From a virus (lineage: Duplodnaviria > Caudoviricetes): 64,000 nucleotides of DNA. The first letter of the stretch is position 1; every line of letters starts with the position of its first letter. Under the pieces are notes generated by a model. That model was not told the origin of the DNA, searched no databases, and worked only from the letters and a program-made list of their open reading frames with translations. The translations under genes were made by a program, and so were the position numbers. Location of the stretch: the IMG/VR virus record IMGVR_UViG_2974778606_000001, positions 32,001 through 96,000 of that record; one strand, written 5' to 3'. Of the stretch, positions 15,201-46,197 are shown one piece after another.

Positions 15201-18200
15201 GGCTCATATATGAGTGAAGAAGTTCAACTTCTTTCTCCACCAACTGACAGTAATGGAACAATGCTCACAGCGCCTACTGATTGGTTCTCTGTTGGTGGCA
15301 CCTTTGTTGCCCCTGCTGGTGCTACTCAGGCAAACTTCTTTATTCGTCTAGCGCGTTATGACAGCGTTGCTGCTGGTACTGTTATTGGATATATAGATGA
15401 TGTAACAGTAACTACTCCACCACGTATTAAGGTTGGTCTGTTTGGATTCGACAATTCCAATAACATCATCGACTGGGATTATGTCGATGACGCAACCACG
15501 CCTACAAAGAAGCATCCGATGCCAACCGATTACAGTCTTCTTTCTGGATATGCAGCCAATCAGTACATGATGGTTCAGAACAATTCAGAAGTTCAGATTG
15601 CAACCGGTAGCTCTGGCACGACTGCTGACTGGATTACTGTAACTGGATATGTTCGTGGTCGAGGTGGAGCCGGTGCAACGGGTGTCCTTGGTACTCAAGG
15701 AGAGCGTCAAGACCCATACAACCCAGCTTCTCTGAATCAGTCTGTACGCTATCTGGTTCCTTATGTGGAATGGGATGTAGCAACTGGTTCAAAGGCCCAA
15801 CTTGACCAGTTTTCCATCGAGGCTTATGAGAATGGTGCTCCTGCAAAGGTTGCAACCACTGACATCAATGGTCAGAAGGCGGTTTCTGTTGAGAATATTC
15901 AGGGTTCCATATTTGACCACGCAATCAGATTCTACACTGGCGAGCCAGATGAACAGTACCCTGGAATGATTGGTCACGTAATGGACGGAGACTGGAATGA
16001 CGCTTCTCATATCAGAATCTCTCCTCCTCTCATCAACAAGGACTCTGACTACGGTGGTGTATACATTGGCGTCTACGACCGCAATCCGAACTACATCTAC
16101 GATGCCACATTCGAAGATGGTATTACTGGATGGACCGGAATGGCAAATACCACCCTGTCTCATGAAACCACAGTTGGTAGAGAAGATACGAACTCACTGA
16201 AGATTCTTGCGACTGGTACAATCTCAAACCCAGCAACCACAGAACTTCTCGGTAAGTATTCAGTATCAACTCTGACCAACCAGGAACTCGTTGGTCAGAA
16301 GGTATCTGTTAGTGGTTATGCAATGATGGGAACCGCGACCGGTAGAAACGTGCGCCTTGTCGTCAAGTTCATGGATGAAGCAGGAGCAATGATTACTGGA
16401 TACTTCGTCGAGAAGGCAGTAACAAACACTGCTTGGACAAGCTACTCATTCGTCTCTCCAATCGTCATCCCAGACACCTGTTACTCTGTTGAATTCTCAT
16501 TCTCATGGTTCAATGGTGCAACTGGCGACATTGTATATGTCGACGACGTTCAGCTTGAGATGGGAACCAAGAGTGAATTCCGTACCGCGTCTGCAAGCAA
16601 GATTATGCTTCAGTCCGATTACGTAAAGAGCAATGGTGGAATCATCATTTCAAGTTCCGAGCTTGATTTGCCAGATAACGTCTGGGGAGCAACTGTTGGT
16701 GGTCGTCGTGATATGCCATTCTATCCTGGTGTAATCCTTCAGTCTGAAGGTGGAACCAGTGCATTCCGTTATGTAAACTACACAGATTCATCTGGTAACA
16801 GAGCGTCTACACAGGTCACTAACTTCTCTCCTTCAGGAACAGAAGAACACGGAATCAGATTCTATGGAATGAACGATTCAACGTATCCTGGTCGTTGGGT
16901 TCTAACAAATACTACTGGACAGTTTGTTATGTCTAGCTATGCTGACACTGGCGAAGACATGACGACTGCAAGGAATGTTCGTGTCTACGGCCATCTCGAT
17001 GTTGAGGGTGCCCCACCTTGGTCAGCACTGACTCTTGCATCTGGTACTCAGGCCGGTAGCACATATGACGTTTCTTGGTACTTGAACAATGAAACTGTTT
17101 ACCTACGTGGTGTTATCCAGTCCTATGCCGCACGAACGACTCTGTTCACGCTTCCTTCTGGAGGAAGGCCAGTCACCCCAGTTTGGCTATCTACCAACAC
17201 ATGGGACACTGCTGCTTCTACCAGCGTCTCTCCAGCGGTTCTTCGTGTAAACACAGATGGTACTGTTCAGGTTTATCAGGTTTCAACAGTTCGACCTTAC
17301 ATTACACTGGACGGACTAAGCTTCTCTGTAGCTCCAGAAGCAACAGCGCCACCTTCAAGCGGTGATACGACGGCTCCTGGAACTCCTACCGGATTCAAGA
17401 TTACACCATTGTCATCAAGTACCACAACTGGTACTTATCGTCTGAACTGGACTAACCCTTCAGCATCAGACACGGCCGGTGTCAAGATTATCTGGAGAAG
17501 CGACAGATATCCTACTGTAACCATTGCAGCAAGTGGTACCAAGACTCTGACCACAGATGGAAAAATCATTACCGTAACAGGTGCTGCAAGCGCTGCAAAG
17601 CAGTATGACCACTCAGGTCTACCAGTGAACAAGACCATCTATTACCGAGTTGTTTCCTACGATACAAGTGGAAACCACTCAACTTATGTGTCTGCTTCAC
17701 GATACCTGCTAGCTTCACCAATTACAGTGACTGCGAATTCATCAGACTCATACCGTCTTGGATATGGCGGTATGTGGAGAAACGACGGTGACGAAGTTTA
17801 TCAGGGTGACTGGTCAGGTAATGACAATCACAGAGGTATTTACTTGTACGGAACCAAGATTTACGACGCTCTGTCTGCTGGTGGTGTGGTAAGAACTCCG
17901 ACAAAGGCAACTATCTACCTCAAGAGACTGAGCACAGCTCATGGTAACAATACTGGAGTAGGAATCAACCTAAGAGGTCATGTCTACCAGACTAAGCCAT
18001 CTGGTGACCCTGTTGGTGGTATGACTAATGAAGGTTCAGACGGAGATGACATTGTATTCCTATCAAGAGGAGAAGCAGCTACAGTAACAATTCCATCAAG
18101 CTGGTATAACAATATTGTAGATTCAACTGCTGTGAATCGAATTGAAGGATTCGGTGTTTATGGAAGTGCTACAGGTGACTATGCAGTAATGTACGGAGTA

Positions 18201-41611: not shown

Positions 41612-41684
41612 TGGGCGGTGGCGAACCGGTGAACGCACCTCTCTGATAAGGAGGCATTGGAGGGTTCAACTCCCTCTCGCCCAA
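41612..41684 (+). tRNA. tRNA-Ile(GAT)
   Basis: CCTCT-CTGATAA-GGAGG. Confidence 0.88.
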
Positions 41685-41723
41685 CTGGTCTCAATGGTGA
41701 GACACTAACGAAATAACAATACA

Positions 41724-43541
41724 ATGGTAGATTTCGACAAGAGACATTCCAAGGAACTTGTGAAACGCCCTGACACAGACCTGGTTGATACCAGGTCTTT
41801 TCGGTCTTCCGGTCAGGGTGTATTTTCGCATGTCCGAAAAGGAATGAAAGTTACCACTAAGGCCATTCTGGATTGGGTCTACCTGAATGACTATAAGGAA
41901 GAGATTGCTAAGGCGAAGATTGATGGCAATTTGGAAAAGGCCCGAAAACTTAAGATTGAACAGGAAAAGCGCAGTGAGCCAAGGCGGAAGAGATTCTATT
42001 CTATTCTTGCTTTCCTGGCTGCCCTGACAGGATGGGCATACGTGACATGGAGCATCGTACCGATTCTCTTTGTTGCAGGTGCCGCGCTGGTTGTGATGTG
42101 GTTCGTAGGAAGTGGCTTCAAGCCATCTGAAGCCTTCTCTGCCATTACAGGAAGCATGGACGAGAAGGACGACCCTATGGAGCCTTTCCCAATTGCTGAC
42201 GCTCGCAACAGAGACGAGGCTCAGGAATGCTTGAGGAGAGCGCTTCTTGCTGAGGGAATCACTCCCAGGGTTATCTTGGAACCAACTCGTTACAATTGGG
42301 GATGGGAAATTCCGGTAGTTCTGAGAAAGGGTACTCCTGACGATGTAATGGCTAAGGCCAAGAAGATGGAAACTCTTATGAGACTTCCATCTGATGGAAT
42401 GCTGGTAGCAGCTACTAGATTCCGGGCCGAAGTAATTATCAGACTTATGCAGACTGACCCATTTGCTGATATGACATCAGAGCCTAGAGCAGAACCATTG
42501 TCTCGTTCTATCAAGAACAAGTACAAGATTGCTCAGCGAATGGACGGTACGCCTCTTGAAATCTCTTTGCTGAGAAACCACGCAGTTGTTATTGCTGCGC
42601 CTGGTGGTGGTAAGTCAATGTTCATGCGTAAGCTGGCAGACATCACCACTAGCTGTAGAGACTGTGTAACTTGGGACATTGACCCTGGTGGTAATGGACT
42701 TGAGGTCTTCGGAAGGGCTATCGCACGACGTGGTAGGACGGAAGAGGAAATTGAGGAAATGCTTACCGAGGCTCTGGAGTACACCAAGATTCGTGCAAAG
42801 AAGCTGACGAAGCTGGGAATGGGTGACAACTGGCAGCCAACCAAGGAGCATCCTGCCCTCATCATCTTCATTGATGAGTTTATTCAGCTAAACAAGAAGT
42901 GCAAGGATTTGGCCATTCAGATTATCCGCAATGGACGTAAGTCTGCTATTACTGTCGTACTGGCTGCACAGCAGGCTACAAAGGACACTCTTGGTGCCGC
43001 CATTGCAGATGCGGTGTCTATCAAGGTTATGTTTGCTTCTCGTCATGCTGACGTACCTCTCGTGTTTGGTGAGGGCATGTTGTCGCAGGGCTGGAGACCT
43101 GATAAGCTACATCCAGCATCAGGTGAGGATGTGGAAGACGCTGGTAAGTGCTACATTTTGGGCGGTGGCTCAAGAGAGCCTTACTTGTACAAGGTCTTCC
43201 CAATCGAACCAGATGAGGCAATCGAGATGGGTGATGAACGTGAAGCAGAGGGCATGCCCGAGCTTGACAAGGATACCTACCTAGATGTTACAGTGACAGA
43301 CACAACCGACAAGCGACTGCTTGAGGACGTGCTTGACATCTTTGAGAACTTCGACGAGAATGATTGGCTACCGGCCAGCATCTTGGTCAAGGAACTCAAG
43401 GGTTACGGTCACACCTTGACAGCCCGTCAGTTGCATGAGATTCTAGGGGATACCGGCCGAGAGAGCCGTATTTGGGAAGGGTCCAAGTACAAGGTGGCTG
43501 GTTACTTCCGAAAGAACATCGAGAAGCAATTGGAGAAGTAA
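41724..43541 (+). CDS. FtsK/SpoIIIE-family DNA translocase, Streptomyces TraB-like
   Basis: Two N-terminal TM helices, APGGGKS, IFIDE, GRK..I....A.Q, short C-terminal wHTH-like domain. Confidence 0.85.
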   Translation: MVDFDKRHSKELVKRPDTDLVDTRSFRSSGQGVFSHVRKGMKVTTKAILDWVYLNDYKEEIAKAKIDGNLEKARKLKIEQEKRSEPRRKRFYSILAFLAALTGWAYVTWSIVPILFVAGAALVVMWFVGSGFKPSEAFSAITGSMDEKDDPMEPFPIADARNRDEAQECLRRALLAEGITPRVILEPTRYNWGWEIPVVLRKGTPDDVMAKAKKMETLMRLPSDGMLVAATRFRAEVIIRLMQTDPFADMTSEPRAEPLSRSIKNKYKIAQRMDGTPLEISLLRNHAVVIAAPGGGKSMFMRKLADITTSCRDCVTWDIDPGGNGLEVFGRAIARRGRTEEEIEEMLTEALEYTKIRAKKLTKLGMGDNWQPTKEHPALIIFIDEFIQLNKKCKDLAIQIIRNGRKSAITVVLAAQQATKDTLGAAIADAVSIKVMFASRHADVPLVFGEGMLSQGWRPDKLHPASGEDVEDAGKCYILGGGSREPYLYKVFPIEPDEAIEMGDEREAEGMPELDKDTYLDVTVTDTTDKRLLEDVLDIFENFDENDWLPASILVKELKGYGHTLTARQLHEILGDTGRESRIWEGSKYKVAGYFRKNIEKQLEK

Positions 43542-43542
43542 C

Positions 43543-43758
43543 ATGTGGACAGCGGGTGTAATCTTTTACCTCGCAGTCTGTGCTTACCTTTGTAAGAAGA
43601 AGGGTTGGCAGATTCATTACATTGCCTGGGGCATGGTTGGTGGACTGATTCTCGCCACCATCGTTCCGACCCTTCCAGCACAGACGAAGCAGACAATGGA
43701 AAACGCTGCTCAGGCAGTTGTTTCTATCTTCGAAAGTTCCGGCATCGGGCAGGGTTGA
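43543..43758 (+). CDS. Small membrane protein
   Basis: Two hydrophobic segments; follows translocase gene by 1 nt. Confidence 0.7.
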   Translation: MWTAGVIFYLAVCAYLCKKKGWQIHYIAWGMVGGLILATIVPTLPAQTKQTMENAAQAVVSIFESSGIGQG

Positions 43759-43783
43759 CAGCAACTCTGCCTCGCTGTAGGAT
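43755..43783 (+). promoter_or_regulatory. Sigma70/HrdB-type promoter
   Basis: TTGACA-N17-TAGGAT. Confidence 0.7.
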
Positions 43784-43816
43784 AGACTTAAACCTAGTCC
43801 TTGTGGGGCTAGCGGA

Positions 43817-43889
43817 GCGCCTGTAGCATAACGGTCGATGCATCTGTCTTATAAGCAGACGATAGGTGGTTCAATTCCACCCAGGCGCA
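43817..43889 (+). tRNA. tRNA-Ile(TAT)
   Basis: TCTGT-CTTATAA-GCAGA. Confidence 0.88.
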
Positions 43890-43916
43890 CTTCATAACTA
43901 CAATCTAGGGGCAAGA

Positions 43917-44081
43917 ATGGCTCTTACGCATTCCCACGGTACACGGGTTGTTGTGCTCAAGGGAAGTCACCGAAATCAAGTTGGCACTGTTACTGTCAAG
44001 GTCAGAATGAAGGTCATCATCCTTGACAAGGACAACGTCGAGCTGATGGGTGCCTCTGACGAAATGGTCAGGAAGCTGTGA
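43917..44081 (+). CDS. KOW-like microprotein
   Basis: GTRVVVLKGSHRNQVGTV. Confidence 0.65.
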   Translation: MALTHSHGTRVVVLKGSHRNQVGTVTVKVRMKVIILDKDNVELMGASDEMVRKL

Positions 44082-44260
44082 AGTGCAAGAAGTGTGGGGA
44101 ATCTGAGAAGGAAGTGCGTGTTGCTCCCATCGTAGGTGACCCACTATGTGAGAGATGCTGGAACGACGTTCAGAATGATATGCGTCGGAAAGGTGCAAAC
44201 TCTAAGAGCGAGTACGAAGAGTACGTCCGAACGCAATACAAGAGATGGCTGAGGAGCTGA
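44078..44260 (+). CDS. Small Zn-finger protein
   Basis: CKKC...CERC. Confidence 0.65.
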   Translation: MKCKKCGESEKEVRVAPIVGDPLCERCWNDVQNDMRRKGANSKSEYEEYVRTQYKRWLRS

Positions 44261-44262
44261 TT

Positions 44263-44436
44263 ATGGAAAGTAAGAAGCACCTTGAGGTCGGAGACACCGT
44301 TTACGTTCTTCATGCACGGGCGGAAGTCTGGGACCTTGTTCCTTCCAACACTGCTATGATTAAGGTGTTGATGAAGGAAGGCCCTTCTGAGGGCCAGGTT
44401 TTCCCTGTAGTCCTTAAGCAAGTTGAGCGCGGCTGA
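44263..44436 (+). CDS. SH3-like microprotein
   Basis: GAGGAG RBS; LEVGDTVYV. Confidence 0.6.
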   Translation: MESKKHLEVGDTVYVLHARAEVWDLVPSNTAMIKVLMKEGPSEGQVFPVVLKQVERG

Positions 44437-44639
44437 TGTTTCAAAAAGGGGACATCATTCGTGTAAAGCCAGGTAATACCAAAATGCCTAGAAAGTATTG
44501 GGGATTGACTGGTGTTATTTCTGGGCGAGAATCCTTTCTTGCTCGAAAGGTATTCCGGACAGATTACCTTATAGTTATGCATGGTAGTCTGGAACCTGCA
44601 ACCTTTAAGGAAAGCGACATAGAGCTTTACCGCCCCTGA
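44436..44639 (+). CDS. KOW/SH3-like microprotein
   Basis: FQKGDIIRV...GLTGVI...FKESDIE. Confidence 0.65.
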   Translation: MFQKGDIIRVKPGNTKMPRKYWGLTGVISGRESFLARKVFRTDYLIVMHGSLEPATFKESDIELYRP

Positions 44640-44649
44640 TGGGGCACAT

Positions 44650-44734
44650 GGAATGTAAGCGATTGGCTAGCAGGTATCTTGGAACGGTACTAAGGGTTTT
44701 ACAGCCCGGCTGGGTTCGATTCCCAGGCATTCCG
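44650..44734 (+). tRNA. tRNA-Ser(GGA)
   Basis: GTATC-TTGGAAC-GGTAC, long variable arm, G73. Confidence 0.85.
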
Positions 44735-44747
44735 CAGGAGGTGTGAT

Positions 44748-44966
44748 ATGATAATCTGTGGCGACACAGTGAAAGTAAAGCACGACCGTCCTAACGTGGA
44801 CCCTGCTTATTACGGTAAGCGTGGTAGGATTCATAAGAGGACTCGTATGCTTGGTGTTCTTGGTGCTGGGCAATACGAAATTATGTTCTTCGAAAGTGAC
44901 CTGAATCATCCAATTATGGGTGTCATGGGTGGCTTCAATGAAGATGACTTGGAAGTTGAACGCTGA
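44748..44966 (+). CDS. KOW/SH3-like microprotein
   Basis: GGAGG RBS; GDTVKV...GKRGRI...FNEDDLE. Confidence 0.7.
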   Translation: MIICGDTVKVKHDRPNVDPAYYGKRGRIHKRTRMLGVLGAGQYEIMFFESDLNHPIMGVMGGFNEDDLEVER

Positions 44967-44975
44967 CTTCCCTAT

Positions 44976-45061
44976 GGAGGCACGCATTGGTGGGCTTATC
45001 GGTCTTGAAAACCGTGATGGCGTAGTGATATGCCGTGGGGGTTCGATTCCCTCTGTCTCCG
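44976..45061 (+). tRNA. tRNA-Ser(TGA)
   Basis: Loop CTTGAAA, long variable arm, G73. Confidence 0.87.
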
Positions 45062-45065
45062 CTTC

Positions 45066-45094
45066 GCCCGGTACATAATGTACCGGGCATTTTT
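45066..45094 (+). terminator. Intrinsic terminator
   Basis: GCCCGGTACA-TAA-TGTACCGGGC then ATTTTT. Confidence 0.85.
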
Positions 45095-45105
45095 GTAGGA
45101 GCATA

Positions 45106-45258
45106 ATGCTAGGAAAAGGAAAGAAGCAGAAGGACTGCTATCATGCCAGAGTAAGAGAAATATATGGTGACGAAATCATCGCCTCTGGCTATAAGCGCGC
45201 CTACTGCTACGATTGCAAAAGATACCTGCCCGAACTACCTCCAGAGAGAAGAAAGTAA
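45106..45258 (+). CDS. 50-aa Zn-binding microprotein (not in ORF track)
   Basis: AGGAG RBS; CYH...CYDC. Confidence 0.6.
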   Translation: MLGKGKKQKDCYHARVREIYGDEIIASGYKRAYCYDCKRYLPELPPERRK

Positions 45259-45444
45259 ATGGCCAAGGAGTTCCCCAAGGGGAATAACAAGAGGGACTTC
45301 ATCGAGTTCCTTGAGAAGAACAGAATTGAATTCTGGTGCTCCATCTGCAATACCGAAAACCCTCGCAAGTGTCAGTGCTGGACAGACATTCAGCGATGGG
45401 AGCAGGTTGAGCTGTGGCAGGGTGAGGAGAGGCGCAAGAAGTGA
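45259..45444 (+). CDS. Small Cys-rich protein
   Basis: CSIC...CQC. Confidence 0.6.
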   Translation: MAKEFPKGNNKRDFIEFLEKNRIEFWCSICNTENPRKCQCWTDIQRWEQVELWQGEERRKK

Positions 45445-45833
45445 CAGCCGTTCTCATCGGTGTCCTGCTCCATTTCATTGGTGATTATCTCATTCAGACA
45501 GACTGGATGGCACAGCTAAAGACAAAGCGCTGGCTACCGGCCATTGTCCACGGTGTCACCTATGGTGTCCCATTCATGTTTGTCACGATGTCACCAATAG
45601 CTTTGGCTGTCATCATTGTCACTCACATTGTCATCGACCATTATCGACTGGCAAGACATGTTGTCTGGGCAAAGAACCAGCTAGCACCAAAAGAATGGCG
45701 GTATTCATGGGCTGAGGGTAACCTCACTGGATATCGCAATGACGCACCACCATGGTTGACAACCTGGTTGATGATTATCGCGGACAACACTCTGCATGTC
45801 ATCATCAACACTCTAGCCATCCTCTATCTATGA
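45441..45833 (+). CDS. DUF3307-like membrane protein
   Basis: HFIGDY..QT.WMA..K, H...DH, DNTLH. Confidence 0.8.
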   Translation: MTAVLIGVLLHFIGDYLIQTDWMAQLKTKRWLPAIVHGVTYGVPFMFVTMSPIALAVIIVTHIVIDHYRLARHVVWAKNQLAPKEWRYSWAEGNLTGYRNDAPPWLTTWLMIIADNTLHVIINTLAILYL

Positions 45834-45843
45834 GGATGGCTTT

Positions 45844-45940
45844 TGTCATTCTCAGGACAGTCTGTCACTTGTCCCGTGACATGTCCTGTGACACGATGAC
45901 ATGTCCAGTGACATCCATGTGACATGTCCTACGGCTGTCC
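45844..45940. repeat. Dense array of TGACATGTCC / TGTCA repeats
   Basis: Three TGACATGTCC copies plus several partial copies in 100 bp of non-coding DNA. Confidence 0.8.
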
Positions 45941-46084
45941 TCGCAATTTGAGAAAGAGGCGGCGGCTCCGGAGGTCGCATTCGTTTTGTTCAATCCTCAG
46001 AGCGCGGCCCGGCGGCCTTGAGGACGGAAGAATGTCTTAGAGACCAGATACAAGAGAGAAGACCTAATAGGTTCAAGGAGGGAG

Positions 46085-46114
46085 TTGACAGGATTCTCAG
46101 AGGTCTGCTAAGGT
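46085..46114 (+). promoter_or_regulatory. Promoter followed by AT-rich tract (to 46197)
   Basis: TTGACA-N18-TAAGGT. Confidence 0.65.
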
Positions 46115-46197
46115 GTAGTTACACTAGAAAAGAATAAAGAAAAATATCTAGAAAGAATCTAAACCGGTTCTAAATAATATAGAATAGATTAGAGAAT

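What the first reader, a model, noticed from the sequence alone, without database searches (positions are those of the whole stretch)
41724..45940. Plasmid-type TraB translocase plus small membrane protein in a phage, near a clt-like repeat array
Seen: 605-aa protein with TM helices, FtsK ATPase and a short wHTH-like tail, followed by a 71-aa 2-TM protein; the pair is flanked by two tRNA-Ile genes; a short-repeat array lies 2.3 kb downstream. Known: Streptomyces conjugation needs only TraB, which binds 8-bp repeats in clt via its wHTH, and Spd membrane proteins aid intramycelial spread. Inference: the phage may move its DNA across septa or between hyphae without virions.
Basis: partly seen in the sequence, partly recalled or inferred. 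Interest (0 to 1): 0.78.

Follow-up and report, generated by a model that had tools for sequence, protein, structure and literature searches.

The report
Conjugation-type DNA pump in lytic phage
A strictly lytic 133-kb Streptomyces phage carries a membrane-anchored DNA pump built like those that Streptomyces plasmids use to push double-stranded DNA between hyphae, plus arrays of a short DNA word that could be its docking sites. The phage might therefore spread DNA without virus particles, but nothing here tests that.

Summary
Window 41724-43541 encodes a 605-aa protein with two N-terminal membrane helices, an FtsK-type alpha/beta motor and a C-terminal winged helix. A 71-aa membrane protein follows, two tRNA-Ile genes flank the pair, and a repeat array (3x TGACATGTCC) lies 2.3 kb downstream.

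The window is a cluster BE1 (Samistivirus) Streptomyces phage. About 87 phage records already annotate this gene as "FtsK-like DNA translocase", so the gene itself is not new.

It is neither canonical TraB (NF041214: 26.7 bits, cut-off 800) nor chromosomal FtsK (no PF01580 hit). It sits inside a third lineage of roughly 680 clusters. That lineage includes the only FtsK-like ORF of pFP1-type plasmids, small serine-recombinase elements, and Streptomyces prophages.

Relatives carry a short-repeat array right after the stop codon. The nearest prophage clade uses CGTGAC, the same core as the phage's GTGACA arrays. All 14 related phage loci keep such an array 2-3 kb downstream. A second array lies inside a DUF2637 (transfer-module-type) membrane-protein gene elsewhere in the genome.

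The TraB-like reading is partly supported. DNA binding, transfer and spread are untested, and an origin or regulator role for the arrays is not excluded. This scan has flagged similar modules many times in temperate phages; the precedent is pZL12.

The parts
41612..41685 (+). tRNA-Ile(GAT), upstream flank of the translocase gene
   Evidence: ARAGORN
41724..43541 (+). 605-aa membrane-anchored FtsK/HerA-superfamily dsDNA translocase (P0001). Two TM helices at ~91-133, alpha/beta motor at ~150-520, winged helix at ~545-605. PHROG 12531.
43543..43758 (+). 71-aa hydrophobic protein (P0002), starting 1 nt after the translocase stop codon. PHROG 12950, function unknown. Absent from some BE phages.
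43817..43890 (+). tRNA-Ile(TAT), downstream flank
45441..45833 (+). 130-aa membrane protein gene (annotated DUF3307 in RefSeq relatives). Its 3' half (45432-45640) already carries clustered TGTCA(C) words, forming the left part of array B.
45815..45841 (+). Intrinsic-terminator-like hairpin (10 pairs, then a T tract) ending the membrane-protein gene
45844..45940 (.). Non-coding core of array B. It holds 3 exact TGACATGTCC (palindromic core GACATGTC) plus GTGACA/TGTCAC/GGACA/TGTCC partial copies in both orientations. Candidate clt-like docking site.
45962..45978 (+). Second terminator-like GC hairpin, so the array sits between two hairpins
46085..46114 (+). Conserved promoter-like element TTGACA-18 nt-TAAGGT, followed by an invariant GTGTAGTTACACTAGAAAA and a purine/AT-rich tract (second AT-richest 200 bp of the genome)

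Best explanation
P0001 is an active, membrane-anchored hexameric dsDNA pump. It belongs to a mobile-element lineage of the FtsK/HerA superfamily that has the architecture of Streptomyces conjugative Tra proteins. The phage lineage probably acquired it from the pool shared by pFP1-type plasmids, small integrative elements and Streptomyces prophages. The most likely mechanism has three steps. First, the protein inserts in the hyphal membrane or at septal cross-walls. Second, it is loaded onto replicated phage dsDNA at the GTGACA arrays: array B at 45432-45940 of the window, and array A at genome 13.5-14.0 kb. Third, it pumps that DNA across a membrane or septum into a neighbouring hyphal compartment, so one infection can reach compartments the virion never adsorbed to. 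Shown: the fold, motifs, family placement, contexts of relatives, and the existence, conservation and non-randomness of the arrays. Inferred: ATPase activity, hexamer formation, array binding, the direction and destination of transport, and any effect on spread.
For: Fold and motifs: FtsK motor match at E 5.8e-16; family profile against PDB gives FtsK 6e-17 and EccC 2e-18; Walker A/B are invariant; two TM helices and a wHTH are modelled. The gene is conserved in all BE-type phages found (79-87 records). In the tree the phage clade is monophyletic (99*) and nested (97*, 96*) within cell-borne relatives, apart from canonical TraB (100*) and FtsK. Contexts of relatives: in pFP1-type plasmids it is the only FtsK-like ORF, downstream of GntR regulators and a DUF2637 protein and followed by many small ORFs. 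It also occurs in serine-recombinase elements and in prophages with terminase and portal genes. Arrays: 7 of 7 loci of the nearest prophage clade have 6-10 CGTGAC/GTCACG words directly after the stop codon. Other relatives have different words in the same place (GGTAGAG, ATCGGA), which is the classical clt position. In 14 of 14 phage loci the densest GTGAC window lies 2-3 kb downstream of the gene, with 11-13 copies in BE2 phages. In an unbiased k-mer ranking GTCAC/GTGACA is first or second in both phage and prophage arrays. The translocase is the only DNA-binding protein detectably shared between phage and prophage loci. The phage also has a DUF2637 membrane protein (25.8 bits, cut-off 22.8). 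DUF2637 genes neighbour canonical TraB genes in 4 Streptomyces loci. Literature: TraB binds repeated words in clt through its wHTH, and pWTY27 TraA (688 aa, 2 TM) footprints on TGACACC repeats (PMC3583192).
Against: No experiment of any kind exists for this protein or for any BE phage. The genome has no integrase and BE1 phages are reported as lytic (PMC12509530), so a conjugation-type function has no obvious niche. The array is 2.3 kb from the gene, and nothing repeats directly after the stop codon. The phage wHTH resembles those of relatives whose arrays use other words (ATCGGA, GGTAGAG). The clade sharing the GTGAC word has a poorly alignable tail (16% identity). The shared word may therefore be read by another protein or be convergent. 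Array B also looks like an origin or regulatory site: it sits between two hairpins, upstream of a conserved promoter and of the second AT-richest tract of the genome. Array A lies in coding DNA. The NF041214 hit is unspecific.
Confidence: 0.42

Rival explanations
1. The arrays belong to something else: a replication origin (iterons plus an AT-rich unwinding tract), or operators or tethering sites for another phage DNA-binding protein such as the DUF2637+HTH protein P0271. In this reading the translocase acts on DNA without sequence-specific loading, or on other sites.
For: Array B is followed by a GC hairpin, a conserved promoter and the second AT-richest 200 bp of the genome. Array A sits inside the P0271 gene itself and is conserved there in BE2 phages at 16-18 words per 300 bp. 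P0271 ends in an HTH-like segment. The wHTH similarity pattern does not follow the repeat word.
Against: The same word is arrayed right after the translocase gene in 7 of 7 prophage relatives, and those sites lack an AT-rich tract. No initiator or regulator is detectably shared between these loci and the phage. The cumulative GC skew shows no turn at array B.
Confidence: 0.25
2. The protein is a mimic of host FtsK that manipulates host development or chromosome segregation (septation, sporulation) for the phage's benefit. This is the usual speculation in the literature.
For: Phage papers list ftsK-like genes among candidate developmental manipulators (PMC10117723; PMC13587820). The motor fold is FtsK-like.
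Against: The protein is not close to chromosomal FtsK. PF01580 gives no hit. The family HMM scores Streptomyces FtsK at only 45-48 bits. The tree puts it in a mobile-element clade. The N-terminal domain and linker of FtsK are missing (605 aa, 2 TM).
Confidence: 0.12
3. The pump moves phage DNA into prespore compartments during infection-triggered sporulation, so that the phage persists inside spores. This would be analogous to SpoIIIE-dependent trapping of phage DNA in Bacillus spores (comparison from my own knowledge).
For: The mechanics are the same as in the best explanation. Phage infection triggers sporulation at the plaque edge (PMC10117723, abstract as listed).
Against: Nothing specific supports it. 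No carrier state is reported for BE phages in the papers read.
Confidence: 0.08
4. It is a leftover of a plasmid or prophage transfer module, kept for an unrelated role such as superinfection exclusion or help with genome entry.
For: The parts are dispersed: translocase at 73.7 kb, DUF2637 gene at 13.6 kb, NUDIX homologue at 12.6 kb of the genome. There is no GntR regulator and no adjacent array.
Against: The gene is full-length with intact motifs in every BE phage found, at down to 57% identity. This argues for selection on the motor itself.
Confidence: 0.1

Closest known systems
TraB of Streptomyces plasmid pSVH1 with its clt/TRS repeats (Reuther 2006 and Vogelmann 2011, as cited in PMC3583192), and TraA of pWTY27 (PMC3583192)
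   Same: Size (~600-700 aa), two N-terminal TM helices, FtsK-type motor and C-terminal winged helix. Short repeated words are arrayed near the gene. Transfer by these plasmid systems needs a single pump protein plus the clt site.
   Different: A separate clade: NF041214 scores 26.7 bits against a cut-off of 800, and the tree separates the two. The host replicon is a strictly lytic 133-kb phage. The array is 2.3 kb away. No GntR repressor or spd operon lies beside the gene. Nothing has been tested.
The translocase of pFP1-type Streptomyces plasmids (NC_006912.1). Zhang et al. 2008 (Appl Environ Microbiol 74:3368) called it the major functional traB; this is from my memory of the abstract, as the paper is not held.
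   Same: Same protein family: 41-43% identity over ~400 aa. It is the only FtsK-like ORF in the plasmid.
   Different: The plasmid protein is longer (open frame up to 935 aa; the annotated homologue in NZ_CP108056.1 is 863 aa). It sits in a GntR / DUF2637 / small-ORF cassette, and its post-stop repeats use another word (GTAGAG).
Streptomyces plasmid-phage pZL12 / phiZL12 (Zhong et al. 2010, J Bacteriol 192:3747; cited in PMC4487206), and the prophages found here (L064, L065)
   Same: These are phage genomes that carry a Streptomyces-type tra function. The prophage clade is the nearest cellular kin (45-50% identity) and has CGTGAC arrays.
   Different: They are temperate or plasmid-borne, so conjugal transfer of the replicon makes sense. 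The BE phage has no integrase, and partition functions were not looked for.
Chromosomal FtsK/SpoIIIE with the gamma domain and KOPS/SRS
   Same: Motor fold, and the principle of a wHTH reading short DNA words to load a hexameric pump.
   Different: No PF01580 hit. Different N-terminus and no linker. The words are clustered in two arrays, not spread in a polar manner over the genome.

Membership tests
Canonical Streptomyces plasmid TraB (NCBIfam NF041214, pSVH1 type) | Score at or above the curated cut-off (800 bits) of the equivalog model | tested here: not met
   26.7 bits, E 1.9e-6, covering only the P-loop core 286-461. Chromosomal FtsK scores 67 bits on the same model. True TraBs score 800-1005 bits.
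Canonical Streptomyces plasmid TraB (NCBIfam NF041214, pSVH1 type) | Groups with TraB in a phylogeny of the motor domain | tested here: not met
   TraB (12 rows) is one clade (100*). The phage clade lies in a different clade of 49 rows (96*).
Canonical Streptomyces plasmid TraB (NCBIfam NF041214, pSVH1 type) | Architecture: N-terminal membrane anchor, FtsK-like motor, C-terminal wHTH | tested here: met
   Model with pLDDT 85.8; FtsK motor match; winged-helix matches for the tail.
Canonical Streptomyces plasmid TraB (NCBIfam NF041214, pSVH1 type) | wHTH binds repeated 8-bp words in a clt next to the gene | not testable with these tools
   Arrays exist, but binding needs EMSA or ChIP. The array is 2.3 kb away, and nothing repeats directly after the stop codon.
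Chromosomal FtsK/SpoIIIE (Pfam PF01580) | PF01580 domain above the gathering score | tested here: not met
   No PF01580 hit at E<=1 for P0001. Only 10 of 54 family members hit it, and weakly.
Chromosomal FtsK/SpoIIIE (Pfam PF01580) | Multi-TM N-terminal division domain, long linker, and alpha-beta-gamma C-terminus | tested here: not met
   605 aa with two TM helices and a ~20-residue low-confidence linker. Streptomyces FtsK open frames are ~975 aa.
FtsK/HerA superfamily of P-loop pumps | FtsK-type alpha/beta motor fold with Walker A and B | tested here: met
   Foldseek 2ius E 5.8e-16; family profile against FtsK 5.9e-17 and EccC 2.3e-18; K297, D384 and E385 conserved.
pFP1 / prophage translocase lineage (PHROG 12531 and ~680 clusters) | Homology over the motor region to these proteins (the phage's N-terminus and wHTH tail do not align by BLAST), and nesting among them in the tree | tested here: met
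   E 1e-110 to 1e-100 and 40-50% identity over 60-95% of the query; nested with 97* and 96* support; PHROG 12531 hit over the full length.
pFP1 / prophage translocase lineage (PHROG 12531 and ~680 clusters) | Short-repeat array directly after the stop codon, and a DUF2637-like membrane protein gene directly upstream | tested here: not met
   No array follows the stop codon. The arrays lie 2.3 kb downstream and 60 kb away. The DUF2637 gene is at genome 13.6 kb on the other strand.

The most novel reading that the evidence does not exclude
A strictly lytic Streptomyces phage uses a conjugation-type dsDNA pump, loaded at GTGACA arrays and possibly helped by a DUF2637 membrane protein. The pump pushes replicating phage genomes through cross-walls into neighbouring hyphal compartments. 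This would be a virion-independent cell-to-cell route of infection in a multicellular bacterium.
Probability: 0.22. Interest if true: 0.85.

Novelty: new variant of a known kind. Interest (0 to 1): 0.58.

Why it matters
Phage spread in a compartmentalised mycelium is poorly understood, and the "FtsK-like" genes of actinophages are usually dismissed as possible developmental manipulators. This work gives the gene a concrete hypothesis that can be tested with isolated phages and laboratory Streptomyces strains. The gene belongs to the mobile-element Tra lineage. That lineage characteristically has a repeat array after the gene. The lytic BE phages keep both the pump and arrays of the same word as their nearest prophage kin. 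If the hypothesis holds, it would be a new mode of viral spread in bacteria, and it would link conjugation and infection mechanistically. The analysis also shows that surveys of actinomycete integrative elements based on PF01580 miss this whole translocase lineage.

Tried and rejected
- NCBIfam plasmid_TraB as evidence for the TraB type: rejected. Chromosomal FtsK scores higher on that model, and it rings in 9-13 of 14 control genomes.
- Sequence search of PDB with the single protein: only marginal hits (TrwB at E 0.05). The family profile was needed.
- Foldseek of the tail alone: no hit at E<=0.001. VIA-align gave generic winged-helix matches with Z up to 7.5, and no FtsK gamma domain appeared among the 50 rows shown. 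This is inconclusive rather than negative.
- The search for related loci with the 54-sequence alignment failed because no conserved stretch was long enough.
- Accessions tried for SCP2 and pWTY27 are not in the plasmid collection. The Zhang 2008 paper is not held, so the functional status of pFP1 traB rests on memory.
- GACATGTC counted alone over the window is not significant (3 copies against 1.4 expected). Significance comes from the clustering and from conservation.
- The exact palindrome GACATGTC does not cluster in other BE phages. The conserved unit is the shorter GTGACA/TGTCAC word.
- BLASTP of the DUF2637 protein against the 430-aa protein upstream of the prophage translocase found nothing. 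One homologue gives a sub-threshold DUF2637 hit (E 0.011).
- No link between P0002 and any Spd protein was found.


Full report
**What the window is.** The window is bases 32001-96000 of a complete 132,885-bp phage genome with 11,063-bp direct terminal repeats. It is about 48% G+C and has 33 tRNA genes in the window. By nucleotide identity it is a cluster BE1 Streptomyces siphovirus of the genus Samistivirus. Its closest records are Anedea and Riptide, at about 94% over the region. BE1 phages are described as having ~11-kb terminal repeats (PMC5764925), and the BE1 phage Riptide is reported to follow a lytic life cycle (PMC12509530). The genome has no tyrosine or serine recombinase.

**The observation.**
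- The 605-aa ORF at 41724-43541 (P0001) folds with high confidence (pLDDT 85.8). It has two long hydrophobic helices (about residues 91-133), a compact core (150-520) and a small C-terminal H-beta-H-H-beta-beta-H domain.
- The core superposes on the FtsK alpha/beta motor (2ius, E 5.8e-16). The next-best matches are the pCW3 coupling protein TcpA and EccC/EssC.
- Walker A (GGGKS) and Walker B (FIDE) are conserved across 54 relatives.
- The tail, modelled separately (pLDDT 75.6), matches only winged-helix domains, at modest scores.
- The 71-aa ORF (P0002) starts one base after the stop codon. It has no annotated family beyond PHROG 12950.
- Two tRNA-Ile genes flank the pair.
- The repeat array at 45844-45940 holds three exact TGACATGTCC copies plus partial copies.

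**What is already known.** The gene is annotated "FtsK-like DNA translocase" or "FtsK/SpoIIIE-like protein" in 79-87 deposited BE-type phage genomes, and it has its own PHROG (12531). Papers on Streptomyces phages mention such genes only in passing, as possible manipulators of host development or helpers of replication. In the library searched I found no paper that links the BE gene to the Tra proteins of Streptomyces plasmids or to a cis-acting site.

**Family placement.**
- Pfam's FtsK_SpoIIIE model does not hit the protein at all.
- The best NCBIfam hit is plasmid_TraB, at only 26.7 bits against a cut-off of 800. This hit is not diagnostic, because Streptomyces chromosomal FtsK scores 67 bits on the same model.
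- Exhaustive searches find about 680 clusters of relatives. Many are 40-50% identical over most of the protein and come from Streptomyces and Pseudonocardiales genomes, mostly labelled hypothetical.
- A profile of this family scores canonical TraB at 51-88 bits and FtsK at 45-48 bits, so it is about equally far from both.
- I built a maximum-likelihood tree of the motor region from 64 rows: 9 phage proteins, 40 relatives including one plasmid protein, 12 canonical TraBs taken from Streptomyces genomes, 2 FtsKs and one other FtsK-like protein. The phage proteins form one clade (99*) nested among the cell-borne relatives (97*, 96*). Canonical TraB (100*) and FtsK lie outside on long branches.
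- The protein is therefore a member of a third, poorly annotated lineage. It is not TraB in the strict sense and it is not FtsK.

**What the relatives do for a living.**
- In pFP1-type Streptomyces plasmids (39-63 kb) the homologue is the only FtsK-like ORF of the replicon. It lies downstream of divergently transcribed GntR regulators and a DUF2637 membrane protein, and it is followed by many small ORFs. This is the layout of Streptomyces transfer and spread regions. From memory, Zhang et al. 2008 reported a functional traB on pFP1; that paper is not held.
- In Actinokineospora and Kibdelosporangium the gene lies in small elements that end in a large serine recombinase.
- Two loci of the Streptomyces clade that the tree groups with the phage proteins (80 support, unresolved among several subclades) turned out to be prophages, with DnaB, GntR, an HTH_17 protein, NUDIX, terminase and portal or head genes.
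- The lineage thus circulates among plasmids, integrative elements and temperate phages. The plasmid-phage pZL12 is the published precedent for a Streptomyces phage with a tra function (cited in PMC4487206).
- Earlier notes of this scan report many such temperate phages. I did not rely on them, but my independent contexts agree with them.

**The repeat arrays.** This is the new evidence.
- In 7 of 7 loci of the nearest prophage clade, the intergenic DNA directly after the translocase stop codon holds 6-10 copies of CGTGAC/GTCACG in both orientations. It is the densest such window in each 18-22-kb locus.
- More distant relatives have other words in the same position: GGTAGAG in L013, L015 and L017, and ATCGGA in L069.
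- A short-repeat array after the gene is therefore a trait of the lineage. This is where clt sites of Streptomyces plasmids lie (PMC3583192).
- The BE phages have no array directly after the gene. However, in 14 of 14 phage loci, including one only 57% identical, the densest GTGAC window lies 2-3 kb downstream, with 11-13 copies in BE2 phages.
- In an unbiased k-mer ranking, the top words of the phage arrays (GTGACA, CGTGAC) and of the prophage arrays (CGTGAC; GTGACA in L021) coincide.
- In this genome GTGACA/TGTCAC clusters at only two places, beyond anything seen in 100 simulated genomes.
  - Array B is at window 45432-45940. Its non-coding core sits between two terminator-like hairpins.
  - Array A is at genome 13.5-14.0 kb.
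- Array A lies inside the 3' half of a gene for a DUF2637 membrane protein with an HTH-like end (P0271). The words occur there in two reading frames, which suggests selection at the DNA level. BE2 phages have 16-18 words per 300 bp at the same place.
- DUF2637 genes sit next to canonical TraB genes in four Streptomyces loci and upstream of the homologue in pFP1-type plasmids.
- At the sensitivity of tblastn, the translocase is the only DNA-binding protein shared between the prophage loci and the phage. A NUDIX hydrolase and HNH endonucleases are also shared.

**Caveats.**
- Binding is untested.
- The phage wHTH is most similar to those of relatives with other repeat words. The clade that shares the word has a tail that aligns poorly (16% identity). 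The simple model "wHTH reads GTGACA" is therefore not supported by co-variation.
- Array B is followed by a conserved promoter-like element and the second AT-richest 200 bp of the genome. That gives it an origin-like or regulatory look, although the GC skew does not turn there.
- The small protein P0002 has no detectable relation to Spd proteins and is absent from several BE phages.
- A strictly lytic phage has no obvious use for conjugation proper.

**Verdict.**
- The gene is known and annotated, but its placement is refined. It is a Tra-architecture pump of the plasmid/prophage lineage, not an FtsK copy and not canonical TraB.
- The clt-like reading of the array gains real but circumstantial support. 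A post-stop array is a trait of the lineage, the nearest clade uses the same word, and the array is conserved across BE1 and BE2 phages.
- The proposed biology, virion-free movement of phage DNA between hyphal compartments, is plausible, testable and unproven. I give the full mechanism about 0.4 and the specific cell-to-cell spread reading about 0.2.

Noticed in passing
outside the window: G000:C1:13613-14494 (- strand) = L001:1246-2127: A 293-aa DUF2637 membrane protein (25.8 bits, cut-off 22.8) with an HTH-like C-terminus. Its disordered linker is encoded by the densest GTGACA/TGTCAC array of the genome (11 per 200 bp), with words in two reading frames. BE2 phages have 16-18 per 300 bp at the same place.
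   Followed up: partly
outside the window: G000:C1:12566-12982: A MutT/NUDIX gene about 30% identical to the NUDIX genes of the prophage loci that carry the translocase homologue. It lies near the DUF2637 gene (about 0.6 kb away), so several pieces typical of Streptomyces transfer modules are scattered in this lytic phage.
   Followed up: no
window 46085-46135: A promoter-like TTGACA-18-TAAGGT followed by GTGTAGTTACACTAGAAAA, invariant across seven BE1 phages although the flanks vary. It is followed by a purine/AT-rich leader, the second AT-richest 200 bp of the genome.
   Followed up: partly
window ~45924-46136 (equivalent of Anedea gene 117): A small ORF annotated in phage Anedea spans the end of the array, a GC hairpin and the promoter-like element. 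It is probably not a real gene.
   Followed up: no
L013:11908-12121, L015:12361-12503, L017:13524-13744, L069:2292-2438: Other branches of the translocase lineage carry different short words directly after the stop codon: GGTAGAG/CTCTAC in two integrative elements and a plasmid, and ATCGGA/TCCGAT in a metagenomic contig. This would suit a systematic word-versus-wHTH census.
   Followed up: partly
family level (A2): Pfam PF01580 detects only 10 of 54 members of this lineage, and weakly. Surveys of actinomycete integrative and conjugative elements that use PF01580 as the Tra marker (for example PMC3218068) would miss these elements.
   Followed up: partly
G000:C1:~16000-18000: The cumulative GC-skew minimum and the AT-richest 200 bp of the genome (16955, 69% AT) coincide with the switch from leftward to rightward genes. 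This is a candidate origin or divergent promoter region, about 3 kb from array A.
   Followed up: no
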